Source: a virus | IMG/VR virus record: IMGVR_UViG_3300047560_002412 | Coordinates: 32,001 to 96,000 of that record | Reading direction: 5' to 3' (one strand) | Length of the DNA stretch: 64,000 bases | Shown here: piece by piece, positions 10,711-22,893 of the stretch | Numbering within the stretch: the stretch's first letter is position 1 | Layout of the letters: each line of letters opens with the position of its first letter | Notes under the pieces: generated by a model | The model's database searches: none | What the model was told of the DNA's origin: nothing | Seen by the model: the letters and a program-made list of their open reading frames with translations, nothing else | Translations under genes and position numbers: made by a program

Positions 10711-11183
10711 TGAAAAAAATTTATTACGAAAAGAAAGGACGTAGATATGTCCCTGTCGCGGAATATGATAACGACTTTATGGATAGTTTTCCTCGCGGTA
10801 ATCATTTGGTTATGTGCTACCCAGGGGGTTCAAGTCGTCGGTTCAATATTGATCCGAACTATGCGGCTCTTATAGCCGCTGGCCGTGTTGCCGAAGATGC
10901 TATTAGCAAACATATTATGAATGTCAGTGCCCTTCGTGTTCCAGAAAAAAATAAACCGTTAACTGAAGAGCAAAATAAAGCATGGCAAGCATTTAATGAA
11001 GCAATGGGCAATAAGATGTACGCACTTGAATGGTGTAGTTATCGCGAAGCCGCAGAAGCAGGCGTAAAAGCAATGATGGCTGAGGCAGAAACTTTAATGT
11101 TAAACCCTGCTGTTCAAAAGGCATTTAATCATTTTATTTTGGTATGTGAATTAACTAAGGAGCATAGTTATGACTCAAATTGA
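10710..11183 (+). CDS. hypothetical phage protein
   Basis: MKKIYYEKKGRRYVPV; TAATG overlap. Confidence 0.7.
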   Translation: MKKIYYEKKGRRYVPVAEYDNDFMDSFPRGNHLVMCYPGGSSRRFNIDPNYAALIAAGRVAEDAISKHIMNVSALRVPEKNKPLTEEQNKAWQAFNEAMGNKMYALEWCSYREAAEAGVKAMMAEAETLMLNPAVQKAFNHFILVCELTKEHSYDSN

Positions 11184-11550
11184 AATTATTATTTTATTGT
11201 TGGCATTATTTGGAGTAAAACATTTTATCGTTGATTTTTTACTTCAAAGAAAATATCAATATTCAAATAAAGGAATCTACGGACATCCCGGTGGACTTCT
11301 ACATGCAGGATTGCATTCTATAGGAACCTTTTTTTGCTTGGCATTTTTCAACCCGTTTTTTGCTCTAATTTCAGCAATTTTTGACGGGGTAGTTCATTAT
11401 CATATTGATTGGGCTAAAACTAACATAAATGCTCGATTTGGCTGGGGACCAAACACCCACGAAGAATTTTGGTGGCTTTTAGGGCTAGATCAGTTCCTCC
11501 ATTACCTGACCTATATAGCTATTATTGGCTGGGCTGTAGGGGCTTTCTAA
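11170..11550 (+). CDS. DUF3307-like membrane protein
   Basis: KHF..DF.LQ, H...H, HY.IDW.K, DQ.LH. Confidence 0.8.
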   Translation: MTQIEIIILLLALFGVKHFIVDFLLQRKYQYSNKGIYGHPGGLLHAGLHSIGTFFCLAFFNPFFALISAIFDGVVHYHIDWAKTNINARFGWGPNTHEEFWWLLGLDQFLHYLTYIAIIGWAVGAF

Positions 11551-11593
11551 ATAAACAGATGCTATAATCATTACTGAGATAAGTAAGTTAAAG

Positions 11594-12169
11594 ATGGAGC
11601 ATCGTGTGAAAAAAATTGAGGATTTCAATGCTGAAGATCGGATTGACCTAAGATTACTTGAAAAAGGTACCTTTTACCTAAACGGTGAAATTAATGAAGA
11701 TTCCGTGGGGGAATGCATTAAATGGTTAATTTACGAAAATTTAGATTCGGCTAAAGATAAACTTTTAACTCTTTACATCAATAGCACAGGTGGGGATTTA
11801 TATCAAGCATTTGGCTTAATTGATGTAATGAAAGCTAGTCCGCATACAATTCGAATTATTGGGCTTGGTGCTGTTATGAGTGCCGCTTTTTTAATTTTTG
11901 CCAGCGGAACAAAAGGACACAGATATGCTGCCAAACATACAAGTTTCATGTGTCATCAATTTAGTGAAACTACAGAAGGCAAATATCACGATATCAAAGC
12001 ATCTATGAAAGAAAATGAAATCTGCAATGAAAGAATGATTGCCATTTTGAAAGAAGCAACTGGTCTCGCTCCGTCCAAAATTAAATCCAAACTACTACCT
12101 GCCAGTGATGTGTACTTGACAGCCGAAGAGGTTTTGCAGTATAATATAGCTGATAGCATATTAGTCTGA
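11594..12169 (+). CDS. clpP: ClpP-like serine protease subunit
   Basis: LYINSTGG, VMSAA (catalytic Ser), FMCHQ, YLTAEE...YNIAD. Confidence 0.85.
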   Translation: MEHRVKKIEDFNAEDRIDLRLLEKGTFYLNGEINEDSVGECIKWLIYENLDSAKDKLLTLYINSTGGDLYQAFGLIDVMKASPHTIRIIGLGAVMSAAFLIFASGTKGHRYAAKHTSFMCHQFSETTEGKYHDIKASMKENEICNERMIAILKEATGLAPSKIKSKLLPASDVYLTAEEVLQYNIADSILV

Positions 12170-12176
12170 AAGGAAA

Positions 12177-12410
12177 ATGATGGAAGTCGTTAGCATTAAT
12201 GTAAAGCAAGACGATCGCAGAAAAGAAGATATGTTAGAAGTACTTGACGTTCTTCGAGACAAAGTTGAATCTGGAGAAATCAAAGAGTTCGTTGCAGCCA
12301 GCATAGATCCAGATGGCGTTGCTAGGATACACGTAGCGGCTTTAGATCTTCCAGGCGGTATTGGATTGTTTGAAATTGGTAAGCACTTACTAATTCAACA
12401 ATCAGATTAA
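12177..12410 (+). CDS. hypothetical protein
   Basis: AAGGA RBS; 77 aa. Confidence 0.7.
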   Translation: MMEVVSINVKQDDRRKEDMLEVLDVLRDKVESGEIKEFVAASIDPDGVARIHVAALDLPGGIGLFEIGKHLLIQQSD

Positions 12411-12449
12411 AATGTTGCAAAAAAGCCACATTATAACCCGCTTTTTCTC

Positions 12450-12478
12450 TTGACATATAAATAAAAAGACAATATAAT
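12450..12478 (+). promoter_or_regulatory. sigma70 promoter with TATAAATA late motif in the spacer
   Basis: TTGACA-17-TATAAT; TATAAATA at 12456-12463. Confidence 0.8.
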
Positions 12479-12533
12479 AAGTTTATTGATTGTGCAGTTC
12501 TCTACTTAATTTTTCCAGGTTTACCAAAAGAGG

Positions 12534-12562
12534 TTGACAAGAAGGCTAAGTAGTTGTACAAT
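12534..12562 (+). promoter_or_regulatory. sigma70 promoter of the leader/attenuator
   Basis: TTGACA-17-TACAAT with TG upstream of -10. Confidence 0.8.
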
Positions 12563-12608
12563 TGATACATGCGTTAGAGATAATGCAAAAAAGGAAAAAC
12601 TGAAACAA

Positions 12609-12749
12609 ATGAAAACTACATCGTTACAAAGACAATTTAAACATATAGCCCAGATGGGAGGCTTTGCGCCCTCATATTGGTCAGTATGTGAGATTAGTCT
12701 ATCTAATGATCGTACACCAGGAACGGGGTCCGGGAGGACGCTAGTGTAA
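12609..12749 (+). CDS. putative attenuator leader peptide containing all 20 amino acids
   Basis: MKTTSLQRQFKHIAQMGGFAPSYWSVCEISLSNDRTPGTGSGRTLV; stop codon lies in the antiterminator 5' arm. Confidence 0.65.
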   Translation: MKTTSLQRQFKHIAQMGGFAPSYWSVCEISLSNDRTPGTGSGRTLV

Positions 12750-12812
12750 ACAAAATACACAGGCAAACTTCAAAGGACCCCAGGATTAAAAACCCTGGGG
12801 TTTTTGTTTTGT
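12725..12812 (+). terminator. mutually exclusive antiterminator/terminator (attenuator)
   Basis: GGGGTCC(12725-31):GGACCCC(12775-81) versus GACCCCAGG(12776-84):CCTGGGGTT(12794-802) followed by T-rich tract. Confidence 0.75.
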
Positions 12813-12824
12813 AGGATTTTAAAA

Positions 12825-12986
12825 ATGGAATTTGAAGATTTTAGAAAACAAAGAAATGCCAAGTTTTTAGCCGAACACGAACTTGACGATGATCAACTTG
12901 AAAAGTTGATAGAAGAAAAGTTTAATCGTGCTCGTGCTTATCACCAGGCATTAAACAAGCAAGAAGACGAAGTAACACTCGACTAA
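12825..12986 (+). CDS. small charged helical protein
   Basis: AGGA RBS, MEFEDFRKQRNAKFLAEH...; first gene after the attenuator. Confidence 0.6.
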   Translation: MEFEDFRKQRNAKFLAEHELDDDQLEKLIEEKFNRARAYHQALNKQEDEVTLD

Positions 12987-12990
12987 TTGC

Positions 12991-13170
12991 AAAGTGTTAA
13001 TAGGGAACGCGACCCTGCAGGGCACTCTAAACATCCTGCTACTAATGTGGGCGGCCTACCGGATGGTAAGTCTAGGGCGATAACCTAGATGCGTAAAAAG
13101 GTAGCGTAGTAAAGCAGATTGGCTCCTTCGGGAGGTCTGCCAGACGTCAGTCTGTTTTACTACACACTTT
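12991..13170 (+). ncRNA. unnamed structured RNA
   Basis: Closing stem AAAGTGT/ACACTTT, long hairpin 13106-13163 with cUUCGg tetraloop, further hairpins. Confidence 0.55.
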
Positions 13171-13225
13171 CTATTCGCTCCCTTGACGAGCGTCTAAAAT
13201 CATAGAGGAGAGTGTTACACATTTT

Positions 13226-13314
13226 GGATCGTATTCCCTACGGCGGTCTGTAAAACCGTTGCCATTAATATGTAGGGTGGCGGCAGTTAGGTTCGATTCC
13301 TTTACGGTCCACCA
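13226..13314 (+). tRNA. atypical tRNA-Tyr(GUA) lacking a D-arm
   Basis: 8-bp acceptor GGATCGTA/TACGGTCC, loop CTGTAAA, long variable region, T-loop TTCGATT, ACCA. Confidence 0.65.
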
Positions 13315-13321
13315 AAAATGT

Positions 13322-13350
13322 TTGACAAATTTATCTGTAGATGATATAAT
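13322..13350 (+). promoter_or_regulatory. sigma70 promoter inside tRNA array
   Basis: TTGACA-17-TATAAT. Confidence 0.85.
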
Positions 13351-13370
13351 AAGTTTGTTGAATAAGATTT

Positions 13371-13454
13371 GCCCGAGTGGAGAAATGGTATACTCAGGAG
13401 ACTTAAAATCTCCCGTCGAAAGGCATGCCGGTTCGAGTCCGGCCTCGGGTACCA
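13371..13454 (+). tRNA. tRNA-Leu(UAA)
   Basis: Cloverleaf, GGAGA-CTTAAAA-TCTCC, CCA. Confidence 0.93.
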
Positions 13455-13459
13455 AATTT

Positions 13460-13534
13460 GGTTTCAAGGTGTTCATGGACGCACACTGGCTTGTCACGCC
13501 AGAGGACGGGGATCGTTACCCCGTGAGACCGCCA
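13460..13534 (+). tRNA. tRNA-Asp(GUC)
   Basis: CTGGC-TTGTCAC-GCCAG, CCA; variant T-loop. Confidence 0.9.
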
Positions 13535-13608
13535 AGTTGTGTTGCAACTAATCTTAGGGATTGAATGTTAGCCTAAGTTAAAATAACAAAAATCATTCAC
13601 AGAATTAT

Positions 13609-13683
13609 TCCAGGGTAGCACAGCGGTAGTGCAGTTGGCTGTTAACCAATTGGTCATAGGTTCGATCCCTATCCCTGGAGCCA
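13609..13683 (+). tRNA. tRNA-Asn(GUU)
   Basis: GTTGG-CTGTTAA-CCAAT, CCA. Confidence 0.93.
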
Positions 13684-13693
13684 ATTATAAATT

Positions 13694-14257
13694 ATGGATA
13701 CATTTAGAACACTTCGCATATACGGATTTAAGCAACCAGGTACAGAATACATCGTTAAAGTAAATGGTGTTGTAACTGAATTAGGGTCTGATGATCTTTT
13801 TTCTTTTATTACTAATACTAAATTACATGGTAGCAATAACATTGTAATAAATGTATTAGCTGGAAAACTTACAATTACACATTGTTATGCCACATATCCT
13901 GCATTGTTTAATAACATTGAAGGAACAGCAACAATGGTGCAACCAATTGCAGATCCAATTGCTGTAATAGAAAATGGACAGATTTTTTCAGTACCATTTC
14001 CTATTGTAGTATCAGAAGGTGAAACATTTGATTATGAACATTTAATGTTTAATGGTCCTTCAAGATTTAAAATTGCCGTACAAGGATTAGGAATTAATCC
14101 AGGTATAAACGTGTTTATTGGCAATGCTATGAAAAATGAATTTACTCAAGGAATCACTGATATTCAAGTTGAATACGACTATGAACGATTCCCCAATGAA
14201 ATAAATTCTGAAGAAGATTTAAACAATTTAAAATTAAAAGTTTTAATGGCTCGGTAG
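13694..14257 (+). CDS. hypothetical beta-rich protein within tRNA array
   Basis: 187-aa AT-rich ORF; stop TAG lies inside tRNA-Trp. Confidence 0.65.
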   Translation: MDTFRTLRIYGFKQPGTEYIVKVNGVVTELGSDDLFSFITNTKLHGSNNIVINVLAGKLTITHCYATYPALFNNIEGTATMVQPIADPIAVIENGQIFSVPFPIVVSEGETFDYEHLMFNGPSRFKIAVQGLGINPGINVFIGNAMKNEFTQGITDIQVEYDYERFPNEINSEEDLNNLKLKVLMAR

Positions 14258-14324
14258 TTCAGTCTGGCAGAACGTTGGTCTCCAAAACCAAATGTCGGTG
14301 GTTCAAATCCATCCCGGGTCGCCA
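14248..14324 (+). tRNA. tRNA-Trp(CCA)
   Basis: TTGGT-CTCCAAA-ACCAA; D-stem GTTC/GAAC; CCA. Confidence 0.93.
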
Positions 14325-14330
14325 ATCAAT

Positions 14331-14406
14331 GCTCGGTTCGTCTATCGGTCTAGGACACCGCCCTTTCACGGCGGGAAGAGGGGTTCGATTCCCCTACCGA
14401 GTACCA
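14331..14406 (+). tRNA. tRNA-Glu(UUC)
   Basis: CCGCC-CTTTCAC-GGCGG, CCA. Confidence 0.93.
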
Positions 14407-14415
14407 AAGTTCTAT

Positions 14416-14490
14416 GCACGAGTGGCGGAACGGTGACGCAACGGATTGCAAATCCGCACCATGCAGGTTCGAATCCTGTCTCGTGCTCCA
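14416..14490 (+). tRNA. tRNA-Cys(GCA)
   Basis: CGGA-TTGCAAA-TCCG, U73, CCA. Confidence 0.92.
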
Positions 14491-14492
14491 AT

Positions 14493-14572
14493 GCCCCTGT
14501 GGCCAAATAGGTAAAGGCGGCTCTCTCAAAAGGAGTGACTATCTCTCGGTTCGAGTCCGAGCAGGGGTACCA
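14493..14572 (+). tRNA. tRNA-Leu(CAA), short variable arm
   Basis: GCTCT-CTCAAAA-GGAGT, CCA. Confidence 0.88.
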
Positions 14573-14673
14573 TCAAACGTAGATGTTAATGAACATGCCT
14601 TTTGGATATCTTTGACGAGAGTTCCAGGCATGCTGAAGATATGAATATTTCATATTGTATTTAAAAAAATTAT

Positions 14674-14763
14674 GGAAGTGTGGCAGAGTCCGGTTTATTG
14701 CACCTGTCTTGAAAACAGACGATCAGAAATGGTCCGTGAGTTCGAATCTCACCGCTTCCGCCA
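14674..14763 (+). tRNA. tRNA-Ser(UGA)
   Basis: CTGT-CTTGAAA-ACAG, long variable arm, GCCA. Confidence 0.93.
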
Positions 14764-14769
14764 AGTTAT

Positions 14770-14845
14770 GCAGTAATGGAGGGGTAGGCGCCCTGTGCGC
14801 CGCATTCTAGATTCCCGCAAAGGTTCGAGTCCTTTGGCTGCACCA
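14770..14845 (+). ncRNA. tRNA-like RNA without canonical D or anticodon arms
   Basis: T-arm AAAGG-TTCGAGT-CCTTT, short acceptor GCAGT/GCTGC, ACCA end. Confidence 0.6.
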
Positions 14846-14849
14846 ATTT

Positions 14850-14925
14850 GCCTCTCTAGCTCAATCGGGAGAGCACCGTCTTGATAAGGCGGGGGTACCT
14901 GGATCGAAACCAGGGAGAGGCACCA
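14850..14925 (+). tRNA. tRNA-Ile(GAU)
   Basis: CCGTC-TTGATAA-GGCGG, CCA. Confidence 0.92.
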
Positions 14926-14940
14926 AACAAGGAGAACATT

Positions 14941-15003
14941 ATGGCAATACTTGTTGTGTTAGTTATAATGTTCGTTTTGTATCAAGTGTTAAAAAAATAT
15001 TAA
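14941..15003 (+). CDS. 20-aa hydrophobic peptide
   Basis: AAGGAG RBS; MAILVVLVIMFVLYQVLKKY. Confidence 0.55.
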   Translation: MAILVVLVIMFVLYQVLKKY

Positions 15004-15013
15004 GGAGAATGAC

Positions 15014-15034
15014 ATGAAACGTGGTAAACGTTAG
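15014..15034 (+). CDS. minigene MKRGKR followed by hairpin
   Basis: TAAGGAG RBS; TAG then hairpin 15035-15070. Confidence 0.45.
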   Translation: MKRGKR

Positions 15035-15096
15035 TGTCACCCTAGATCCCGTATTGGTCTAGGGTTGGCACATTAAATCAATTTAATTACGACTAA

Positions 15097-15172
15097 CCCT
15101 ATCTAGCGTTAATGGTAGCGCACTTGACTCTTAATCAATGAGGTGTCAGTTCGAATCTGACGGTAGGGACCA
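15097..15172 (+). tRNA. tRNA-Lys(CUU)
   Basis: TTGA-CTCTTAA-TCAA, CCA. Confidence 0.9.
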
Positions 15173-15176
15173 ATAT

Positions 15177-15253
15177 GGGAGTATAGCTCAACTGGCTAGA
15201 GCAACCGGCTTTTAACCGGTAGGTTCAGGGTTCAAGTCCCTGTGCTCCTACCA
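15177..15253 (+). tRNA. tRNA-Lys(UUU)
   Basis: ACCGG-CTTTTAA-CCGGT, CCA. Confidence 0.93.
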
Positions 15254-15344
15254 TTACTATAAGAGAGAACATTACAATGTTGGGTTCGATTCCCCGCCAC
15301 TGATCAGGTTGGATGGTGTCCTAATGTTCTCCCTTATGGTAATG
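15252..15344 (+). ncRNA. 23-bp stem-closed RNA with internal T-loop hairpin
   Basis: 15252-15274 pairs with 15322-15344 (one mismatch); GGG-TTCGATT-CCC inside. Confidence 0.55.
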
Positions 15345-15412
15345 TAGCATAACGGTAGTGCAGCACCTTCATACGGTGTCCAGTGAAAGTTCGACTCTTT
15401 CCATTACCACCA
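15338..15412 (+). tRNA. tRNA(CAU), elongator Met or Ile2
   Basis: GCACC-TTCATAC-GGTGT, CCA. Confidence 0.9.
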
Positions 15413-15414
15413 AG

Positions 15415-15567
15415 TTTCTGAGATAGACGTAGAGTTTGAGTCCTGCCTAACCTAGCGCAGTTTTGGTCGGCTGCGTGACACCACAGACGGTTATTGGTGG
15501 TCCTAAGACTTGCTCTATCGAGACAATCCAGTGAGTCCTCCCAGGAGGATAGTTGGGCTCTCAGAAA
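15415..15567 (+). ncRNA. unnamed structured RNA
   Basis: Closing stem TTTCTGAGA/TCTCAGAAA with internal hairpins (CGCAG/CTGCG, ACCAC/GTGGT, TCCTCC/GGAGGA). Confidence 0.5.
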
Positions 15568-15577
15568 ACCTATATTT

Positions 15578-15652
15578 GGGGGCAGCAGAGGGCTGCGGGG
15601 AATCCTTGCAAGATTCTTGACTAGAACGGTTCGATACCGTCGGCCTCCACCA
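15578..15652 (+). tRNA. tRNA-Ala(UGC) with minimal D-loop
   Basis: GAATC-CTTGCAA-GATTC, G3:U70, D-arm GCAG-AGGG-CTGC, CCA. Confidence 0.8.
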
Positions 15653-15658
15653 AATTTC

Positions 15659-15733
15659 GCCCTTGTATCCTTAGTGGTAGAGGTCCTGTTTTGTAAGCAG
15701 GGTGTGGTGGTTCGATTCCATCCTGGGGCACCA
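15659..15733 (+). tRNA. tRNA-Thr(UGU)
   Basis: CCTGT-TTTGTAA-GCAGG, CCA. Confidence 0.9.
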
Positions 15734-15736
15734 AGT

Positions 15737-15936
15737 TTTGTTGTAGTGTTAGTAAGTGAAAGTCACTTTTGTTAGTAGCTGGCCAGCCAAAGCAAAAGTA
15801 AACAGAGGGGGGCGCAATACCCTAGCAAAAAATACGTAACTCTGGGCAAGTAACTGCAATAGCGTACCGAGTCCTTCCAGCTGGCTTGATTAGAGGTGAA
15901 TGGTTCCTATAACGATGGTGGAACTACTACAACAAA
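15737..15936 (+). ncRNA. unnamed structured RNA, possible pseudoknot
   Basis: Closing stem TTTGTTGTAGT/ACTACAACAAA; loop AGCTGG complementary to distal CCAGCT. Confidence 0.55.
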
Positions 15937-15947
15937 TTTATTTCTGT

Positions 15948-16021
15948 TGGCGTGTGGTGTAATGGTAACACAACGGACTTTGACTCCGTCGTTCCAGGTT
16001 CGAGCCCTGGCATGCCTGCCA
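15948..16021 (+). tRNA. tRNA-Gln(UUG)
   Basis: ACGGA-CTTTGAC-TCCGT, CCA. Confidence 0.92.
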
Positions 16022-16027
16022 AGTTTT

Positions 16028-16126
16028 GCCTCTGTAGCTTAATGGTAAAGAAGCGAGCTTATACCTCGCCAAAGCACAGGCCAGATAAGCCTGAGTGTGC
16101 AGGTTCGAGTCCTGCCAGAGGCACCA
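16028..16126 (+). tRNA. tRNA with UAU anticodon and very long variable arm
   Basis: GCGAG-CTTATAC-CTCGC; ~29-nt extra arm; 99 nt; ACCA. Confidence 0.8.
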
Positions 16127-16133
16127 TTATTAT

Positions 16134-16210
16134 CGGTCCTTAACTCAGTTGGACAGAGTGCCTGTCTTCGAAACAGGAAGTCGTGGGTTCGAATCCTGCA
16201 GGGCCGGCCA
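16134..16210 (+). tRNA. tRNA-Arg(UCG)
   Basis: CCTGT-CTTCGAA-ACAGG, CCA. Confidence 0.92.
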
Positions 16211-16231
16211 AATTTTTTTATGGAGATTGTT

Positions 16232-16438
16232 ATGAAAGCAACTATGCTAAAAAATCGTTTTAATAATGAGCATTTTGTCTGTGACGATATCCGTGTGACT
16301 GAAACAATCGAAGGTGTCGAGTACATTATTGTACATCGACCCAATGAGCATCGCCCGTTTAAAATGCGTCGCGATGCATTAGAGAAAATTAATATCCCGG
16401 TAGCTCATTTGGAACAGAGTATCACGCTACGAACGTGA
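16232..16438 (+). CDS. small phage protein overlapping tRNA-Arg(ACG)
   Basis: GGAG RBS; MKATMLKNRFNNEHFVCDD... Confidence 0.65.
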   Translation: MKATMLKNRFNNEHFVCDDIRVTETIEGVEYIIVHRPNEHRPFKMRRDALEKINIPVAHLEQSITLRT

Positions 16439-16471
16439 GGGTAGTAGGTTCGAATCCTACCCGGGATGCCA
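16394..16471 (+). tRNA. tRNA-Arg(ACG)
   Basis: TCACG-CTACGAA-CGTGA, CCA. Confidence 0.92.
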
Positions 16472-16482
16472 AACAAAACATT

Positions 16483-16556
16483 CTGGGTGTAGGATAATGG
16501 TAGTCGACGAAGCTTGGATCTTCGAGGCGCTGGTTCGATTCCAGCCACCCAGACCA
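16483..16556 (+). tRNA. tRNA-Pro(UGG), variant loop
   Basis: CGAAG-CTTGGAT-CTTCG, CCA. Confidence 0.88.
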
Positions 16557-16562
16557 GATTAC

Positions 16563-16637
16563 ATAGCGTTCGACTTTTGGTGAGGTCAGTAGGCTTTCAA
16601 CCTACGTAGGCGGGTTCGATCCCCGTACGCTATACCA
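16563..16637 (+). tRNA. tRNA-Glu(UUC), second copy
   Basis: GTAGG-CTTTCAA-CCTAC, CCA. Confidence 0.88.
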
Positions 16638-16642
16638 ACTAT

Positions 16643-16718
16643 GGTGAGGATAGTGTACCGGTGCGCACACCTGTCTGTGAAACAGGTAGATAGGGTTCAA
16701 CTCCCGTCCATCACCCCA
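16643..16718 (+). tRNA. tRNA-His(GUG)
   Basis: G-1, CCTGT-CTGTGAA-ACAGG, C73, CCA. Confidence 0.9.
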
Positions 16719-16719
16719 A

Positions 16720-16794
16720 GGATCTTTAGCTCAGTGGTAGAGTAGCAGCTCGACACGCTGTTGGTCGTAGGTTCAAGTCCTGCAAGATCCACCA
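16720..16794 (+). tRNA. tRNA-Val(GAC)
   Basis: GCAGC-TCGACAC-GCTGT (C33), CCA. Confidence 0.88.
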
Positions 16795-16799
16795 AATAT

Positions 16800-16875
16800 G
16801 CCGCTTTAGCTGATGTGGTCATAGCACCGGTTTGAAGCACCGAGGAATGAGGTTCGATCCCTCAAGGCGGCACCA
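16800..16875 (+). tRNA. tRNA-Phe(GAA)
   Basis: CGGT-TTGAAGC-ACCG, CCA. Confidence 0.88.
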
Positions 16876-16879
16876 GTTT

Positions 16880-16979
16880 AAGCATCAACCGAAAGGTCGG
16901 CGATAAGAACAAGGTGTGAACATAGTTGCATCTTTGTTGGTCGGTAGATTGGAACGACTCACTCTTTTTACTGATGCTT
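16880..16979 (+). ncRNA. unnamed structured RNA
   Basis: Closing stem AAGCATCA/TGATGCTT; ACC-GAAA-GGT tetraloop hairpin. Confidence 0.45.
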
Positions 16980-17003
16980 TTTTAGTTTGTTAACCAAAAT
17001 ATG

Positions 17004-17033
17004 TTGACAAAGCATACAGATAGAATATATAAT
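17004..17033 (+). promoter_or_regulatory. sigma70 promoter for tRNA-Leu/giant ncRNA unit
   Basis: TTGACA-18-TATAAT. Confidence 0.75.
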
Positions 17034-17089
17034 AGTCACATATGCTTGTTAATAGCATTTAGTTCATTAAAAATTAAATTTAAGATTTT

Positions 17090-17173
17090 GCCCTGGTGGT
17101 GGAATGGTAGACACGCTGGTCTTAGAAGCCAGTGTCGCGAGGCGTGAGAGTTCGAGTCTCTCCTGGGGCACCA
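17090..17173 (+). tRNA. tRNA-Leu(UAG)
   Basis: CTGGT-CTTAGAA-GCCAG, variable arm, CCA. Confidence 0.93.
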
Positions 17174-17338
17174 TTAAAAAATAGCATTAGCGGGTATCGC
17201 TTGTGGACGCACAGGCTCATGAGGAATAGGGCCATCTTACTCCTCTGAAAAAACCGTGAACAATGGCTTATGAGGAGAATCGAACTCCACTCAGAAATAC
17301 GTTTCATCCCATAGGGTGTAATGTTATTTTTTAATGGT
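17170..17338 (+). ncRNA. unnamed RNA closed by a 20-bp stem
   Basis: 17170-17189 pairs with 17319-17338. Confidence 0.55.
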
Positions 17339-17347
17339 AAAAATTTA

Positions 17348-18232
17348 AGGGCAGTTTATTGTCCTGTAGGCGGCTTGCCGTCTACAAAGAATAAGTGAGG
17401 TGACTCACCCAAAGCTAGAATGCCTACATACTAGCGCCAGCAATGGTTCATGTAAACAAGCCTGCTCACTACCGCGAGGTAGCGTTCACTGATAAGACCG
17501 GTGGATGTAACAGCAAAGCTGATGTAGTGGAAAGAACGTTTGCTTACAAGCCCGTAAGGGGAACTTGAGTGAATGGAAAGTAACAGGTGGTGCTGACTTC
17601 ACTACAAAACCAATCAGTCAACTGGTATGAGAAAGGGTAGTGTATTGGTCCGAAGGGTCGCTCCTAAGGGCTCGTATGCAATGTTAATGGAAGGTGGAAC
17701 ACGTTGCGAAACGTTGTTACATCGGTCGTGAAACATCACTGAGTAGCTCGCGAGGCAAAAGGTATGTGGTGAGTTGTATTTTGTATTCCAAAAGAGTATG
17801 AAGCAACTGAGGCAGCTCATCGCGGTAGGTTCAATGTAGATCAATGGTAGATCGTCTGTCTTTTAAACAGAATGCTGTGGGTTCAAATCCCATCATTAAC
17901 AAAAATGCAAAGACTGCCTCGGTTATGTGTGAAAAGTATCTAACGCTCGGGGCGCAAGCCAACTGAGTCTGATAAAGCTCGCAAGGTGATATCAGTTTAT
18001 ACTGGAAGTTTCGTAGTTCGCAAGACTTAATGGCTCGCAAGGTCAACGGAATAGATGGTGTAGAGTAGCATATAACGACAAGCCTAATGCCTGGCTTTAA
18101 AAACGGCGATACTGCAAGTAGACTAGGTTACATGGTAACATGAACTTAGTGGATGTCTAGAGAACGTATACTCGCAAGGTGTACGGTAATGCTAGAGGTA
18201 CTTGTGGGAGAGATGTAATCTCAGTCCTCCAC
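17348..18232 (+). ncRNA. giant structured ncRNA, GOLLD-like
   Basis: ~885 nt without credible sense ORF, many GNRA-capped hairpins (GCGA, GTAA, GCAA), inside a phage tRNA array; ends approximate. Confidence 0.75.
17829..17901 (+). tRNA. tRNA-Lys(UUU)-like cloverleaf embedded in the giant ncRNA, no CCA
   Basis: D-arm GATC/GATC, TCTGT-CTTTTAA-ACAGA, T-arm GTGGG-TTCAAAT-CCCAT. Confidence 0.75.
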
Positions 18233-18320
18233 TATTCTAAAACACATTAACTTAAAACATAGTTTCGAGTATGGGAAATGCCGCCCAATGAGATGATGGT
18301 ATAGTGTGTTTCAGAATAGT
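18231..18320 (+). ncRNA. stem-closed small RNA
   Basis: ACTATTCT/AGAATAGT and AAACACATTA/TAGTGTGTTT stems. Confidence 0.45.
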
Positions 18321-18324
18321 TTTT

Positions 18325-18400
18325 GCATCCTTAGCTCAGCGGTAGCAGCGGCGTCTTTACACGGCGTAGGTCGTAGGTTCAATCCCTACAGGATGCACCA
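18325..18400 (+). tRNA. tRNA-Val(UAC)
   Basis: GCGTC-TTTACAC-GGCGT, CCA. Confidence 0.92.
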
Positions 18401-18405
18401 ATTAT

Positions 18406-18500
18406 GGAGTGTTGGCCGAGTTGGTCGAAGGCACCTTCCTGCTAAGAAGGCATTCGGGCAAAAACCTGGATCATTGGTTCGAATCCAATACACTCCGCCA
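18406..18500 (+). tRNA. tRNA-Ser(GCU)
   Basis: CCTTC-CTGCTAA-GAAGG, long arm, GCCA. Confidence 0.93.
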
Positions 18501-18523
18501 AATTTATTAAAAAGGAAAAAATA

Positions 18524-18712
18524 ATGCTAAAACCAGGTCCGAGTTACAAAATGAGTAAGCAGGGTAAAAGAACATTAGCGCAATATCTTGATTCACATAA
18601 GCGTGGCGAAGTTAAGCGTAGTATTATCCAAGCAGAACTTGCTGCATTGATTCAACCAAAACGTGAAAGAAATCGCAGAGAAGGACAAAACGACAATGGT
18701 AGCAAGGAATGA
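18524..18712 (+). CDS. small basic phage protein
   Basis: AAGGA RBS; MLKPGPSYKMSKQGKRTLA. Confidence 0.7.
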   Translation: MLKPGPSYKMSKQGKRTLAQYLDSHKRGEVKRSIIQAELAALIQPKRERNRREGQNDNGSKE

Positions 18713-18980
18713 TATTACAGGTGATGCTATCCAAACTAGGACATCATCTAAAGCATATAACGATAATTACGACGCAATTTTTAGGAAAAATAAAGTGACT
18801 CCAAAAGTAGAAGATATGAAGAAAGGAACTTGTGGTTGCGGACGTTCGCCCACAGGTGATTGCATTGGATGGCATGGATTGTCAGAAGATGCATATAAAA
18901 AAGCACTTGAAGATTATCGTATTGCTGAAGTATCAAAGTTAGTTGCTGAAGAAACACTTCAAGCAACAGACAATAAGTAA
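18696..18980 (+). CDS. small protein with CDGSH-like Fe-S/Zn motif
   Basis: ARNDITGD N-terminal module; CGCGRSPTGDCIGWH. Confidence 0.7.
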   Translation: MVARNDITGDAIQTRTSSKAYNDNYDAIFRKNKVTPKVEDMKKGTCGCGRSPTGDCIGWHGLSEDAYKKALEDYRIAEVSKLVAEETLQATDNK

Positions 18981-18985
18981 TATTT

Positions 18986-19061
18986 GGGGGTTTAGCTCAT
19001 CTGGGAGAGCATTAGCTTTGCAAGCTAAGGGTGATCGGTTCGAGTCCGATAACCTCCACCA
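18986..19061 (+). tRNA. tRNA-Ala(UGC)
   Basis: TTAGC-TTTGCAA-GCTAA, G3:U70, CCA. Confidence 0.93.
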
Positions 19062-19079
19062 AGAGATATATAGTAGTAC

Positions 19080-19155
<76 letters not shown>

Positions 19156-19160
19156 ATTAT

Positions 19161-19236
19161 GGCCAGGTGGCAGAGCGACTTATGCGCTAGATTGCAAATC
19201 TGGATTAGGTAGGTGGAAATCCTACCCTGGCCTCCA
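19161..19236 (+). tRNA. tRNA-Cys(GCA), second copy with variant T-loop
   Basis: CTAGA-TTGCAAA-TCTGG, TCCA. Confidence 0.85.
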
Positions 19237-19245
19237 GTTTTACCA

Positions 19246-19281
19246 AAAAGACTTGACCTTAGGTCTTTTTTGTTTTATACT
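19246..19281 (+). terminator. terminator hairpin overlapping a sigma70 promoter
   Basis: AAAAGAC..GTCTTTTTT; TTGACC(19253)-17-TATACT. Confidence 0.65.
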
Positions 19282-19287
19282 AGTTTT

Positions 19288-19551
19288 GTTGTGTAGCAAT
19301 ACACAACCGGCGAGGTAGAAGGTAGATGAGGATAGACATTTCATTGGCTTACAACGCTAATGAATCTTATCAATGGCAAAACGTCTTGAAAACGTTTCGT
19401 GCTTGAGTGAACCGATATCCACATACCTGTCATTTGCTGATCGGAAATATTCAGGCCTCTGTAGCCTGTTTATTGAATGTTGTCAAGGAGATGCTTTATA
19501 GCTATCCGTTTGCATATTGTCCGGTCTATTACTTGACCTTTTACTGACCCG
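19288..19551 (+). ncRNA. structured RNA or long 5' leader upstream of coiled-coil gene
   Basis: GCAA hairpin, long-range GTAGAAGGT/ACCTTTTAC and ATAGAC/GTCTAT stems enclosing several hairpins. Confidence 0.55.
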
Positions 19552-19578
19552 TTATTTTAAATTAAAAGAGAGACACAA

Positions 19579-20151
19579 ATGAACATTACACTACGCAAAG
19601 CAAACACAATTCAGAACAGCATCAATGATGCAATCAAGGGTATTAAGATTGAGACATCTATTAATATCAACGAATTTCAGGATGTTGAAGTAGAAATCAA
19701 AAAAGCCAATGAAGGATTGTTTTTTGCTGACACTCGTCGTCAAAAGTTAACTTTGGCTCTCTACAACATTCGAGGTCTTGTTGCACAGGCAAACGCAAGT
19801 GCCGGCATTGACCTGGCGCTAACAAAAGCTGCCTTCATTGACAAAAGAATTGCACAGCTAGAAACATTAGCTCAACTTGAAGAACATACTTCCGTTGAAG
19901 TTTTAAAAGGCAAACTTCGTAAAATTGCCGAAGACAAGGGCGAAAGCCGTAGCCGTATTTACGGTTACAATGATTATGTTACTACTACCGTAGTATCTAA
20001 AGAACAGGTTAATCAGGCTAAGAGTGAAATTCAAACTCTTAAAAAACAAAAACAGAAACTCAATGATGAGGTTCTTGAATTAAACATCAAAACAGAAATT
20101 CCTTTAACTGACGATGTTGTTGAAACATTAAAGGCAGAAGGTATTATCTAA
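19579..20151 (+). CDS. helical coiled-coil protein, reminiscent of DIP1984-like family
   Basis: ITLRKA..IQ N-terminus and KQKLNDEVLELNIKTEI C-terminus. Confidence 0.7.
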   Translation: MNITLRKANTIQNSINDAIKGIKIETSININEFQDVEVEIKKANEGLFFADTRRQKLTLALYNIRGLVAQANASAGIDLALTKAAFIDKRIAQLETLAQLEEHTSVEVLKGKLRKIAEDKGESRSRIYGYNDYVTTTVVSKEQVNQAKSEIQTLKKQKQKLNDEVLELNIKTEIPLTDDVVETLKAEGII

Positions 20152-20158
20152 GACCTAT

Positions 20159-20233
20159 CGCGGGTTGGAGAAGTGGTATCTCGGGAGTCTCATAAGCTCC
20201 AGATCCCTGGTTCAATTCCAGGACCCGCAACCA
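20159..20233 (+). tRNA. tRNA-fMet(CAU)-type
   Basis: C1:A72 mismatch, CTCATAA loop, CCA. Confidence 0.88.
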
Positions 20234-20238
20234 ATTTT

Positions 20239-20315
20239 CGGTGTGTAGCTCAGCCTGGTAGAGCTCCTGGTTTGGGACCAGGTGGTCGCATGTTCGAATC
20301 GTGTCACACCGACCA
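20239..20315 (+). tRNA. tRNA-Pro(UGG)
   Basis: CCTGG-TTTGGGA-CCAGG, CCA. Confidence 0.93.
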
Positions 20316-20347
20316 AGTACGATAAGATACGTTCAATAAATAGAAAT

Positions 20348-21505
20348 ATGAATATTGGCGGACTTGATCAATTTAAAGATAATTCTATTAACGGTATTAT
20401 CGACGAAATAAAAAAGATAAATGGTTTATTATTAGATGCAACAATAAGCCTTTGTCAACATTGTCATTACCATGTTCCAGCATATAGATACGAATTAAAC
20501 AATAAAGTCTATATTTGCAAACATTGTATAACACATGGTTTTAGTCATCATCTAATTGAAAATGATGCTGAATTTTATCACGGGTTGATAAAGAACATGG
20601 ATACCATGTGGAATTTTGATAACTATATTCTTACTGAAGTTACAGATAGATGTAATTTAGAATGTCCGCATTGTTATCATTTACCTGATAATAAAATTAA
20701 AGATGTTCCGTTAGAAGATCTTATAACTCGATTTAAAGAATATCCAGACAGCATTTATCATATAATCTTGGCTGGTGCCGAATCGAGTTTAAGGAAAGAC
20801 ATAAAAGATTTAGTTATCGAAGTTAGTAAATTAGGAAAACTTCCTCAAATTTTAACTAATGGTGTTAAATTTTCCGATATTGATTTTGTAAAAAATCTTG
20901 CTTCAGCAAATGTTGATATGACGGTTACCATAGGTTTAAATCATCCTAGCTATATTGGAAATTCTAAGGTACGTGAAAAACAAATTCAAGGAATCCTAAA
21001 TGTAAACGAATACATCAATGGATTATCGTATGTTGGTTACACTATGGTTGGAATGGATGAATTAGATTTTATTCTAACTGAAATTACTAGCACTAATTGG
21101 TGTCAACATTCAAGGATTAGAGCAGGTAGTGAAATAGGTAGAAATGCCACAGACGAACAAATTTTTGTCAGTGACATTTTTAAAGCAACAAAATTGTGGG
21201 CAGAAAGAAACGGAAAATCTTTTGAAGTTGTAGATGCTGATAATAACATATATCATGTTGTTGTAAAAATAGACAACAAGTATATAAGAATTATTCAATG
21301 GTGTGACGAAACAAATATTGATTTAGAAGAATTAAGAACTGGTCCTTGGTGTGATTTTGTCTACGACGGAATAACAAATTTTTTACATCAAGTTATAAGA
21401 AGAGATGTTTGGAAAAATAAAGGTTTAATTTTACCGGATACTCCTCCAATAAGATACCAGGTTGGGCATCATAAAGATATAGATCCAGTTTTTCTCAAGC
21501 ACTAA
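20348..21505 (+). CDS. radical SAM enzyme with N-terminal Cys/His motif
   Basis: CNLECPHC; SLCQHC...KHC..HG; LTNG. Confidence 0.88.
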   Translation: MNIGGLDQFKDNSINGIIDEIKKINGLLLDATISLCQHCHYHVPAYRYELNNKVYICKHCITHGFSHHLIENDAEFYHGLIKNMDTMWNFDNYILTEVTDRCNLECPHCYHLPDNKIKDVPLEDLITRFKEYPDSIYHIILAGAESSLRKDIKDLVIEVSKLGKLPQILTNGVKFSDIDFVKNLASANVDMTVTIGLNHPSYIGNSKVREKQIQGILNVNEYINGLSYVGYTMVGMDELDFILTEITSTNWCQHSRIRAGSEIGRNATDEQIFVSDIFKATKLWAERNGKSFEVVDADNNIYHVVVKIDNKYIRIIQWCDETNIDLEELRTGPWCDFVYDGITNFLHQVIRRDVWKNKGLILPDTPPIRYQVGHHKDIDPVFLKH

Positions 21506-21532
21506 AGAAGTTGCTGTAAATATAGTTTTAAT

Positions 21533-21606
21533 GCGGGGTTCGTATAGTGGTAATACCTCAGCCTTCCAAGCTGATGCGGAGAGTTCGATTCTCTTACCCC
21601 GCTCCA
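21533..21606 (+). tRNA. tRNA-Gly(UCC)
   Basis: TCAGC-CTTCCAA-GCTGA, TCCA. Confidence 0.93.
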
Positions 21607-21610
21607 TAAT

Positions 21611-22183: not shown

Positions 22184-22184
22184 T

Positions 22185-22260
<76 letters not shown>

Positions 22261-22264
22261 AATT

Positions 22265-22339: not shown

Positions 22340-22343
22340 AATC

Positions 22344-22417: not shown

Positions 22418-22418
22418 C

Positions 22419-22447: not shown

Positions 22448-22453
22448 ATAATA

Positions 22454-22883: not shown

Positions 22884-22893
22884 GGAGAATATT

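What the first reader, a model, noticed from the sequence alone, without database searches (positions are those of the whole stretch)
12534..12812. Attenuator whose leader peptide samples all 20 amino acids: candidate general tRNA-pool sensor ahead of the phage tRNA/ncRNA region
Seen: sigma70 promoter (12534-12562), then a 46-codon ORF (12609-12749) that contains every one of the 20 amino acids within its first 34 residues. It uses 36 distinct codons in 46 (30 distinct in the first 35), including GC-ending codons unusual for this AT-rich genome (TCG, GCG, GCC, CCC, CAG, GAG, ACG). The ORF end forms the 5' arm of a long hairpin (GGGGTCC 12725-31 with GGACCCC 12775-81; GGAG with CTTC; GTGTA with TACAC, spanning the stop codon). 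That hairpin is mutually exclusive with a terminator (GACCCCAGG 12776-84 with CCTGGGGTT 12794-802, then T-rich tract). Established: this is trp/thr/his-type ribosome-mediated attenuation geometry, but those leaders are enriched for one or two amino acids. Inference: a ribosome reaching the stop blocks the antiterminator and transcription ends, whereas loss of almost any charged tRNA (starvation or host anticodon nuclease) stalls it upstream and turns on the downstream ORF, ncRNA and tRNAs. Caveats: the SD is weakly spaced, and an internal promoter at 13322 can drive most tRNAs independently.
Basis: partly seen in the sequence, partly recalled or inferred. Interest (0 to 1): 0.92.

Follow-up and report, generated by a model that had tools for sequence, protein, structure and literature searches.

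The report
All-amino-acid leader gating phage tRNAs
A short translated leader that keeps one or more of each of the 20 amino acids sits in front of a terminator/antiterminator RNA switch at the head of the tRNA gene array of a large family of uncultured freshwater jumbo phages, and probably lets the phage raise tRNA-region transcription whenever translation falters.

Summary
The element is also conserved. About 120 related phage loci and 128 protein-cluster representatives carry a 41-55-codon ORF. Its stop codon lies at the apex of a hairpin, and the base of that hairpin (GGGGUCC/GGACCCC) competes with an intrinsic terminator. Both helices show compensatory changes.

The ORF looks translated:
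- It is open in every locus, while both other frames are closed.
- The stop is kept in frame across two reading registers.
- Third codon positions vary most.
- Six loci place the promoter so that transcription would start at the AUG.

Same-strand tRNA genes follow in 77 of 78 loci with enough flank.

The all-20 property is not an accident of one sequence:
- 62 of 66 close homologues are complete. Tree simulations give about 24.
- 92 of 128 distant representatives are complete. A profile null gives about 26.
- Neighbouring small-protein families have 0 complete members.

My reading is a ribosome-mediated transcription attenuator whose leader samples all amino acids. That is a new variant of a known mechanism. 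Nothing has been tested experimentally.

Caveats: an oddly spaced SD-like motif, a core peptide conserved more than completeness alone requires, internal promoters downstream, and Glu at the edge of the sensing zone.

The scan had noted this same stretch before (e1-6163227).

The parts
12450..12478 (+). Upstream tandem sigma70-type promoter (TTGACA-17-TATAAT, 12 of 12)
   Evidence: Most homologues have a second near-consensus promoter 70-160 nt before the ATG.
12534..12562 (+). Proximal sigma70-type promoter (TTGACA-17-TACAAT, 11 of 12). Expected transcription start is about 12569.
   Evidence: A promoter with at least 10 of 12 matches lies just upstream of the leader in 70 of 70 unique homologous fragments.
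12570..12587 (+). Stem-loop at the 5' end of the transcript
   Evidence: Fold. Different stem sequences in homologues keep the pairing (GTTAGG/CCTAAC, CGCTG/CAGCG), read from alignment A3. It is absent in the 6 leaderless variants.
12609..12749 (+). Leader ORF: 46 codons, all 20 amino acids by residue 34, TAA stop
   Evidence: The ORF is intact in all homologous loci. The other two frames are closed in 66 of 66. Fitch changes by codon position are 170/161/216.
12648..12681 (+). Small conserved hairpin inside the ORF, over codons 14-25. Possibly a pause or synchronising hairpin; that role is inferred.
   Evidence: RNAalifold consensus, alignment columns 113-127 with 133-146. Only one-sided changes are seen.
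12725..12781 (+). Antiterminator hairpin. Base helix GGGGUCC/GGACCCC, middle helix GGAG/CUUC, apical helix enclosing the stop codon at 12747-49.
   Evidence: The base helix is paired in 462 of 462 cells, and 3 of 7 pairs show double changes. The interior is more stable than shuffles in 45 of 52 distinct versions.
12776..12811 (+). Intrinsic terminator: stem 12776-84 with 12794-802, 9-nt loop, U tract 12801-11. It shares 12776-81 with the antiterminator.
   Evidence: Sequence. RNAalifold finds 12 pairs, 4 with compensatory changes. Other stem variants.
12825..12986 (+). 53-codon ORF, the first cargo after the terminator. Present in many homologues but not all.
   Evidence: No family match in PHROGs, NCBIfam or Pfam.
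12987..13224 (+). Conserved unnamed structured RNA between the terminator and the first tRNA
   Evidence: 89% identical in L020 and found by blastn in many loci. No Rfam family.
13225..13311 (+). tRNA-Tyr(GUA), atypical. It is the first tRNA of the array and lies upstream of the internal promoter.
   Evidence: Weak Rfam tRNA-clan hit. ARAGORN calls tRNA-Tyr(gta) at the matching place in homologues, and it is the first tRNA in 25 of 45 loci.
13322..13350 (+). Internal perfect sigma70-type promoter that can drive the remaining tRNAs independently
   Evidence: Conserved in L002.

Best explanation
This is a ribosome-mediated transcription attenuator at the head of the phage tRNA array.

**Proposed sequence of events**
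1. Two strong host-type promoters fire into a leader of about 240 nt.
2. As the RNA emerges, the antiterminator hairpin (12725-12781) forms before the 3' arm of the terminator exists. An untranslated or slowly translated leader therefore lets RNA polymerase read through into the small ORF, the unnamed structured RNA, tRNA-Tyr and the rest of the array.
3. A ribosome that translates the leader on time runs into the 5' arm and stops at the UAA in the hairpin apex. That frees GGACCCC to pair with CCUGGGG, and transcription ends at the U tract.
4. The leader carries about one codon for each rare amino acid, and in most homologues all 20 appear before the 5' arm begins. A severe shortage of almost any charged tRNA, or a general translation block, would hold the ribosome upstream and switch the tRNA region on.

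**Shown here:** conservation and covariation of both helices, conservation of the reading frame, selection for the complete amino-acid set, and the link to tRNA arrays.

**Inferred:** that ribosome position controls termination, the direction of the switch, and the natural signal (starvation, host tRNA-cleaving defence, or translation shut-off).
For: **Architecture**
- The base helix of the antiterminator pairs in 462 of 462 cells across 66 distinct sequences. Double changes are G-C to A-U (14), G-C to U-A (2) and C-G to U-A (1). No shuffle of 500 reached this.
- The terminator has 12 pairs, 4 with compensatory changes. Further stem variants appear in a second subfamily.
- The hairpin interior differs in sequence between lineages yet folds better than dinucleotide shuffles in 45 of 52 distinct versions (median z -3.1).
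- The stop codon lies 21-30 nt inside the hairpin in 66 of 66.
- In the window the two states are nearly isoenergetic, -74.0 against -73.6 kcal/mol. The antiterminator is the fold at transcript lengths ending at 12785-12792. Masking a ribosome footprint at the stop gives the terminator fold. Masking one at codon 30 gives the antiterminator fold.

**Translation**
- The ORF is intact in 86 of 86 true homologous loci of the first two scans. In the third scan (43 loci) an ORF was delimited in 40; the other 3 are cut by a contig end.
- Both alternative frames are closed in 66 of 66.
- The 5' arm is read in two registers (Gly-Ser or Arg-Val). The distance from arm to stop changes with the register, so the apical TAA stays in frame.
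- Third-position excess: 170/161/216 changes. pN/pS is 0.66 before the arm and 1.07 in the tail.
- 6 of 70 unique fragments place the -10 box 6-8 nt before the ATG, so transcription would start at the AUG.

**Completeness**
- 62 of 66 tips have all 20 amino acids. Simulations on the same tree, with the same per-column change counts and state sets, give a mean of 24. The maximum was 59 in 8000 runs at full change counts.
- With only 30% of the inferred changes, 4 of 3000 runs still reached 62.
- 92 of 128 cluster representatives are complete (median pairwise identity 40%). The profile null gives 25.8 +/- 4.6, with a maximum of 42 in 2000 runs.
- 77 of 87 unique peptides from all loci are complete, against a permutation null of 30.
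- The neighbouring 53-aa and 77-aa families from the same loci have 0 complete members.
- 59 of 66 are already complete before the 5' arm starts.

**Context**
- Same-strand tRNA genes follow in 45 of 46 loci and 32 of 32 loci that have at least 700 nt of flank.
- No promoter-like site lies between the terminator and 13322 in the window.
Against: - There is no experimental or read-level evidence that translation affects termination.
- The SD-like AAGGA sits 12-14 nt from the ATG in 43 of 56 leaders that have such a motif. The phage's long ORFs peak at 6-8 nt, so initiation may be weak or unconventional.
- The central peptide (IAQxGGFMPSYWS...NDRTPE) is conserved more than completeness alone requires. 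Several multi-copy residues (Gly-Gly, Ala, Arg) and several synonymous sites (GAT, ACA, GCC, GGC) hardly vary. This points to extra constraints from RNA structure or a peptide-specific role.
- With a 12-nt safety margin between the A-site codon and the 5' arm, only 21 of 66 leaders are complete. Glu is then missing in 35. With 9 nt it is 54 of 66.
- One codon per amino acid should respond poorly to mild starvation.
- Internal promoters such as 13322 can express most tRNAs without readthrough. A promoter-like site lies between the terminator and the first called tRNA in 20 of 45 loci.
- One lineage (L137, protein P0100) has lost the hairpin and terminator by deletion, so the element is dispensable there.
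- The permutation null is not perfectly calibrated. A control family reached z = 4.8 on mean residue diversity, against 11.8 for the leader.
Confidence: 0.6

Rival explanations
1. It is an ordinary small protein gene with its own terminator. The 46-residue peptide has a function of its own, for example host takeover or anti-defence. The stop-spanning hairpin only stabilises the 3' end. The full amino-acid set would reflect unknown constraints on the peptide.
For: The central peptide is conserved, and third-position changes dominate at Gln17, Ser24, Ser27, Arg38 and Glu42 of the alignment. The ORF is called as a protein in 132 clusters. Strong promoters and a strong terminator would make it a self-contained unit.
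Against: - The tail is under no peptide constraint (pN/pS 1.07) and is read in two frames, while its RNA pairing is kept.
- Selection keeps the outermost antiterminator pair, which lies inside the terminator stem. A simple 3' hairpin would not need that.
- Cys, His, Tyr, Phe, Asn and Lys move to different positions but are not lost. That is hard to square with a folded or binding peptide.
- No family match in Pfam, NCBIfam or PHROGs.
- The fixed position at the head of tRNA arrays would go unexplained.
Confidence: 0.15
2. It is a programmed ribosome-arrest leader. The conserved nascent chain (F...W...DRTPE) would stall the ribosome in response to one specific ligand or factor, as in TnaC or SecM. 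The all-20 composition would be secondary.
For: Trp, Asp and Arg are invariant, and Pro and Glu nearly so. The F-to-W spacing of 5 and the W-to-P distance of 10-14 residues resemble known arrest peptides. That resemblance is recalled from memory, not tested.
Against: - The W-to-DRTP distance varies by up to 4 residues among homologues, which is unfavourable for precise contacts in the exit tunnel.
- A ribosome arrested with Pro37 in the P site would cover the 5' arm and give termination, the same outcome as completed translation (geometry). Arrest at that site would therefore not switch anything.
- GATCG is invariant at the nucleotide level, including a synonymous site. Part of this conservation is therefore in the RNA.
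- It does not explain the selection for completeness.
Confidence: 0.1
3. It is a structured non-coding RNA of about 240 nt, and the open frame is incidental.
For: The fold is strongly non-random (z -4.99). Nucleotides are conserved at many synonymous sites. The SD-like spacing is poor. Structured RNAs lie nearby: GOLLD and the unnamed RNA at 12987.
Against: - The frame is open in every homologue, while both other frames are closed in 66 of 66.
- Indels upstream of the arm are multiples of three, or are offset by a matching change in the arm-to-stop distance.
- The ATG is invariant, and in 6 loci it is placed at the expected transcription start.
- Third positions vary most.
- Selection for an amino-acid property makes no sense without translation.
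Confidence: 0.05

Closest known systems
Leader-peptide attenuators of amino-acid operons (trp, his, thr, leu, ilv, pheA of enterobacteria). Described from recalled textbook knowledge.
   Same: A promoter-proximal short ORF, an intrinsic terminator, a competing antiterminator that forms first, and a ribosome whose position decides which hairpin forms. The distance from the leader stop to the termination point is about 60 nt here and, as recalled, about 70 nt in trp.
   Different: - There are no runs of codons for one or two amino acids. Instead all 20 are present, the rare ones about once each.
- The stop codon lies inside the antiterminator apex, not before it.
- No convincing 1:2 'protector' helix. 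Only an invariant 4-5 bp GAUCG/GGGUC option was seen, so the default without translation is probably readthrough.
- The cargo is tRNA and ncRNA genes of a phage, not biosynthetic enzymes.
bmrB leader of Bacillus subtilis bmrCD (PMC4191407, abstract read)
   Same: The abstract describes a small translated ORF with alternative stem-loops and an intrinsic terminator. Transcription of the downstream genes responds to general interference with protein synthesis and needs translation of the leader.
   Different: bmrB is bacterial, responds to antibiotics and controls a transporter. That abstract reports no amino-acid completeness. No sequence similarity was looked for beyond the family libraries (no hit).
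toiL uORF of E. coli topAI-yjhQ (PMC12121999, abstract read)
   Same: A 'multipurpose' uORF where stalling at different positions, caused by different translation stresses, remodels a downstream RNA structure.
   Different: According to the abstract, toiL acts through occlusion of a ribosome-binding site and Rho-dependent termination. The element here has an intrinsic terminator directly competing with a hairpin.
T-box riboswitches (recalled)
   Same: A terminator/antiterminator decision that reports tRNA charging.
   Different: T-boxes bind one specific uncharged tRNA directly and have no leader peptide. No Rfam family, T-box included, matches 12570-12812, apart from a sub-threshold S15-leader hit at 12773-12890 (23 bits against a cutoff of 39.5).

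Membership tests
Ribosome-mediated (leader-peptide) transcription attenuators | Short translated ORF between the promoter and the regulated genes | tested here: met
   The ORF is conserved in all homologous loci, the other frames are closed in 66 of 66, third positions vary most, and the ATG is invariant. Translation itself was not observed.
Ribosome-mediated (leader-peptide) transcription attenuators | Intrinsic terminator downstream of the leader and upstream of the cargo | tested here: met
   9-bp GC-rich stem plus U tract. 12 pairs, 4 with compensatory changes.
Ribosome-mediated (leader-peptide) transcription attenuators | Antiterminator helix that cannot form together with the terminator | tested here: met
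   It shares 12776-81 with the terminator. 100% of 462 cells are paired and 3 of 7 pairs show double changes. The two states are isoenergetic.
Ribosome-mediated (leader-peptide) transcription attenuators | ORF placed so that a translating ribosome disrupts the antiterminator and a ribosome stalled upstream does not | tested here: met
   The stop lies 21-30 nt inside the hairpin in 66 of 66. Folds with masked ribosome footprints behave as expected. This is geometry only.
Ribosome-mediated (leader-peptide) transcription attenuators | Regulatory codons enriched for the amino acid(s) related to the operon | tested here: not met
   No enrichment. There are 36 distinct codons in 46, and mean copy number is 1.1-1.4 for Cys, Trp, Tyr, His, Phe and Asp. 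This is the feature that makes it a variant.
Ribosome-mediated (leader-peptide) transcription attenuators | Protector (1:2) pairing that enforces termination when the leader is not translated | tested here: inconclusive
   Only an invariant, weak GAUCG/GGGUC pairing was proposed by RNAalifold. Folds of the growing transcript favour the antiterminator.
Ribosome-mediated (leader-peptide) transcription attenuators | Termination efficiency depends on translation of the leader | not testable with these tools
   Needs reporters, Term-seq or a coupled in-vitro system. Metatranscriptome contigs cannot show ends.
Nascent-peptide arrest leaders (TnaC/SecM type) | Fixed-distance arrest motif in the nascent chain, with the stall at a defined codon | tested here: inconclusive
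   W, D and R are invariant, but the spacing varies by up to 4 residues. No match in the family libraries.
T-box riboswitch | Match to the Rfam T-box model (stem I with specifier loop, and the T-box sequence) | tested here: not met
   No Rfam hit to T-box at E up to 1 over 11000-24000.

The most novel reading that the evidence does not exclude
The leader is a pan-amino-acid 'translation probe'. Each of the 20 amino acids is kept in the sensing part of the peptide so that loss of any single charged tRNA stalls the pioneer ribosome, lets the antiterminator form, and boosts transcription into the phage's own tRNA array. One possible cause of such loss is a host tRNA-cleaving defence system. The result would be a self-correcting counter-defence circuit: once the phage tRNAs restore decoding, termination returns.
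Probability: 0.45. Interest if true: 0.93.

Novelty: new variant of a known kind. Interest (0 to 1): 0.87.

Why it matters
Why phages carry tRNA genes, and how those genes are controlled, is a long-standing question. Recent papers present phage tRNAs as replacements for host tRNAs destroyed by defence systems. I saw these only as search listings and abstract openings: PMC10264068, PMC11555353, PMC12409363, PMC12673091.

A conserved switch at the head of tRNA arrays would give a concrete, testable control point. Its leader peptide is under selection to contain every amino acid. That would extend leader-peptide attenuation from 'one operon, one amino acid' to a general readout of decoding capacity.

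My searches of the held library found no report of an all-20 leader or of a leader peptide controlling phage tRNA genes. The library does not hold most subscription journals.

The promoters and terminator are of the ordinary bacterial type, so the prediction can be tested in a standard laboratory host or in a reconstituted transcription-translation system.

Tried and rejected
**Searches of cultured phages**
- blastn of 12400-13350 found no match.
- tblastn of the peptide at E up to 10 found no match.
- The family is known here only from uncultured viral and metagenome contigs.

**Other searches that found nothing useful**
- Rfam at E up to 1 gave nothing on the leader.
- PHROGs, NCBIfam and Pfam gave no family for the leader, the 53-aa ORF or the 77-aa ORF.
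- The window's own genome holds only the one copy.
- The ClpP-like neighbour is not tied to the element. More distant ClpP loci (L003, L005-L007, L009, L010) have no tRNAs nearby. In one contig the leader lies about 30 kb from ClpP (L003 against L118).

**A count I dropped**
- I first counted singleton losses compensated on the same branch (15 of 18). Simulations give similar numbers, so I dropped that measure. I used complete tips and uncompensated losses instead.

**Metatranscriptomes**
- 24 runs held 6-15% of the words of 12100-13700.
- Contigs of four river RNA runs come from relatives. They cover the terminator, the ncRNA and tRNAs.
- Some of them join the terminator T tract directly to the ncRNA: joints 12809 to 12990 or 13000 in X1-X4.
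- Contigs cannot show ends or strand, and DNA carry-over is possible. I treat this as no more than a hint of readthrough transcripts.
- The lack of cover over 12532-12747 is not evidence, because relatives diverge there.

**Rows dropped before counts**
- L100 and L101 are unrelated hits inside a long ORF.
- From the representatives I dropped P0093 (599 aa, unrelated repeat protein), P0104 (127-aa fusion), P0087 and P0101 (partial), and P0002-P0004 (from the earlier search).
- P0127 was mis-trimmed to 34 aa and counts against completeness.
- L113, L122 and L142 are cut by contig ends.
- L137, the deletion variant, was left out of the pooled peptide test.

**Not seen**
- Supplementary files of papers were not consulted.
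Full report
**What is in the window.**
The window is part of a 128.7-kb viral contig estimated at 35% complete, so this is a jumbo phage. After a ClpP-like gene (11594-12169) and a 77-codon ORF, the order is as follows:
- Two near-perfect sigma70-type promoters at 12450 and 12534.
- A 5' stem-loop.
- A 46-codon ORF at 12609-12749.
- A three-tier hairpin (12725-12781) whose apex holds the TAA.
- An intrinsic terminator (12776-12811) that shares six bases with the 3' arm of the hairpin.
- A 53-codon ORF.
- A conserved unnamed RNA.
- An atypical tRNA-Tyr.
- A perfect internal promoter at 13322.
- 34 further tRNAs and a GOLLD RNA.

The ORF has 36 distinct codons of 46, 30 of the first 35, and all 20 amino acids by residue 34. 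Against this phage's own long ORFs these values fall in the top 0.08%, 0.3% and 0.1% of windows. One such ORF could still be a lucky find. Two of 271 random small ORFs in the genome are also complete.

**Relatives.**
Cultured phages hold nothing similar. The protein collections and contig scans gave a large family:
- 4 close peptides.
- 23 viral and 65 metagenome loci, of which 2 are false hits.
- 43 more viral loci of a second subfamily.
- 132 clusters at 50% identity in the representative library.

In every true locus of the first two scans the ORF is intact, at 44-51 codons. In the third scan, 40 of 43 loci gave a delimited ORF and 3 are cut by contig ends.

Every one of the 70 unique fragments has a promoter with at least 10 of 12 matches just upstream. 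Six place the -10 box 6-8 nt before the ATG, which would make the mRNA leaderless. Same-strand tRNA genes follow in 45 of 46 and in 32 of 32 loci that have at least 700 nt of flank. The median distance is about 500 nt, and tRNA-Tyr is most often first. The gene between the terminator and the tRNAs varies or is absent. The constant partners of the element are therefore the promoters and the tRNA array.

**The RNA switch is conserved.**
- On 66 distinct sequences the seven base pairs GGGGUCC/GGACCCC are formed in all 462 cells. Three pairs show double changes (G-C to A-U in 14 sequences, G-C to U-A in 2, C-G to U-A in 1). No shuffle of 500 and no slid register matches this.
- The most frequent double change is the outermost pair. 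Its 3' base lies inside the terminator stem. When that C becomes U, the terminator keeps a U-G or U-A pair and the 5' arm changes G to A. Both competing helices are therefore maintained at the shared position.
- The terminator has 4 of 12 pairs with compensatory changes. The second subfamily has quite different extended stems.
- The interior of the hairpin differs between lineages in sequence (for example GUGUA/UACAC, GAGUU/AACUC, GGUUACU/AGUAACU). It still folds better than dinucleotide shuffles in 45 of 52 distinct versions.
- The hairpin (-18 to -30 kcal/mol) is more stable than the terminator (-14 to -18) in all 66.
- In the window the complete transcript has the two states at -74.0 and -73.6 kcal/mol. 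The antiterminator is the fold while the 3' arm of the terminator is still unmade. A ribosome footprint at the stop gives the terminator fold, and one at codon 30 gives the antiterminator fold.

**The ORF is very probably translated.**
- The other two frames contain stops in all 66 sequences.
- Indels upstream of the arm come in threes.
- The 5' arm is read in two registers in different lineages. The arm-to-stop distance changes with the register (22, 25 or 28 nt against 21, 24 or 30 nt), so the apical TAA is always in frame.
- Third codon positions change most (170/161/216). pN/pS is 0.66 before the arm and 1.07 in the tail, where only RNA pairing is kept.
- Against this, the SD-like AAGGA is 12-14 nt from the ATG, where the phage's long ORFs have 6-8 nt. 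However, half of those long ORFs have no SD-like motif at all.

**The complete amino-acid set is under selection.**
- *Counts.* Of 65 unique ORFs in the first set, 61 have all 20 amino acids and 4 have 19. Of the 66 aligned tips, 62 are complete.
- *Turnover.* Rare residues change position without being lost.
  - Cys sits at position 10, 26/27 or in the tail.
  - His sits at 7 or 12.
  - Tyr23 is replaced only where Tyr33 exists.
  - Phe19 is replaced where Phe25 exists.
  - Met16/Ala20 swaps with Ala16/Met20.
- *Tree simulation.* I simulated independent-site evolution on the family tree from a complete root. The simulations used the observed number of changes and the observed residue set of every column.
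  - They give 24 complete tips on average. None of 8000 runs at full change counts reached 62. With only 30% of the changes, 4 of 3000 did.
  - The null loses mainly Cys, His, Tyr, Val, Asn, Glu, Lys and Phe. The real family lacks only Cys once and Val three times.
- *Distant set.* In the 128 cluster representatives (median identity 40%), 92 are complete and 31 have 19. A profile null gives 25.8 +/- 4.6.
- *Negative controls.* The 53-aa and 77-aa families from the same loci have no complete member. They deviate from the same null by z = 4.8 and 0.7 on mean residue diversity, against 11.8 for the leader.
- *Where the set is reached.* Completeness is reached before the 5' arm begins in 59 of 66. 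With a 9-nt margin it is 54 of 66, and with 12 nt it is 21 of 66. The difference arises because the only Glu usually follows DRTP directly.

**How it most likely works.**
The parts fit ribosome-mediated attenuation. The antiterminator forms first unless a ribosome has entered its 5' arm. A ribosome that reaches the apical stop frees GGACCCC for the terminator. Efficient translation therefore ends transcription. A stalled or absent ribosome allows readthrough into the small ORF, the unnamed RNA, tRNA-Tyr and the array beyond.

One codon for each rare amino acid is a poor sensor of mild starvation. It should still respond to near-total loss of any one charged tRNA, or to a global translation block. 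That suits a phage whose array encodes tRNAs for all 20 amino acids. It also fits recent work that presents phage tRNAs as answers to host tRNA-cleaving defences (listings and abstract openings only).

Shown here:
- both structures and their covariation;
- the conserved reading frame;
- the selection for completeness;
- the synteny with tRNA arrays.

Inferred:
- the dependence of termination on ribosome position;
- the direction of the switch;
- the natural signal.

**What does not fit neatly.**
- The central peptide and several synonymous sites are conserved beyond what completeness needs. Part of this is a small conserved hairpin inside the ORF and the invariant GAUCG. A peptide-specific role cannot be excluded.
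- Internal promoters can drive most tRNAs independently.
- One lineage has deleted the hairpin and terminator (L137).
- RNA-library contigs from relatives bridge the terminator into the ncRNA in four river runs, but contigs prove little.

**Comparison with what is known.**
It works like the classical amino-acid operon attenuators (recalled). It also works like general translation-stress leaders such as bmrB (PMC4191407, abstract) and toiL (PMC12121999, abstract). It meets the structural criteria of a leader-peptide attenuator but fails the criterion of enriched regulatory codons. Its cargo is tRNA and ncRNA genes of a phage. It is not a T-box and matches no other Rfam family. Full-text searches for an all-20 leader and for a leader peptide with phage tRNA genes found nothing relevant.

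**Verdict.**
- The mechanism is plausible but untested.
- I rate it a new variant of a known kind, with high interest.

Noticed in passing
window 17766-18227: GOLLD RNA (Rfam RF02032, 221.5 bits, full length) lies inside the tRNA array. A tRNA-Lys(UUU) called at 17830-17901 lies within it.
   Followed up: partly
window 12987-13224: An unnamed RNA of about 240 nt lies between the attenuator and tRNA-Tyr. It is 89% identical in L020, is found by blastn in many homologous loci, and follows the terminator directly in some (L023, L045, L090, L095). It has no Rfam family.
   Followed up: partly
window 13225-13311: An atypical tRNA-Tyr(GUA) that ARAGORN missed here and that gives only a weak Rfam tRNA-clan hit. 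ARAGORN calls tRNA-Tyr(gta) at the matching position in homologues, and it is the first tRNA after the attenuator in 25 of 45 loci.
   Followed up: partly
window 16028-16123: Rfam finds a 96-nt tRNA (59.7 bits) that ARAGORN did not list.
   Followed up: no
L019, L052, L055, L065, L069, L070 (about 2450-2500 in each locus): In six homologues the consensus -10 box ends 6-8 nt before the leader ATG. The transcript would then start at the AUG (leaderless) and lack the 5' stem-loop.
   Followed up: partly
L137:1501-1660 (and protein P0100): A natural variant in which the hairpin and terminator are deleted. The leader ORF runs on to 52-54 codons, yet tRNAs still follow. This may be a constitutively read-through lineage.
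   Followed up: no
window 12116-12145, 12450-12478, 12534-12562, 13322-13350: Four promoters with 11 or 12 of 12 sigma70 consensus matches lie within 1.3 kb. Tandem consensus promoters are also the rule in homologues.
   Followed up: partly
L003 and L118 (same viral contig): In one related phage the ClpP-like gene and the leader/tRNA array lie about 30 kb apart. The ClpP synteny seen in the window is therefore not obligatory.
   Followed up: no
window 12748-13700 in runs X1-X4: River metatranscriptome contigs from relatives cover the terminator, the ncRNA and several tRNAs. Some of them join the terminator directly to the ncRNA.
   Followed up: partly
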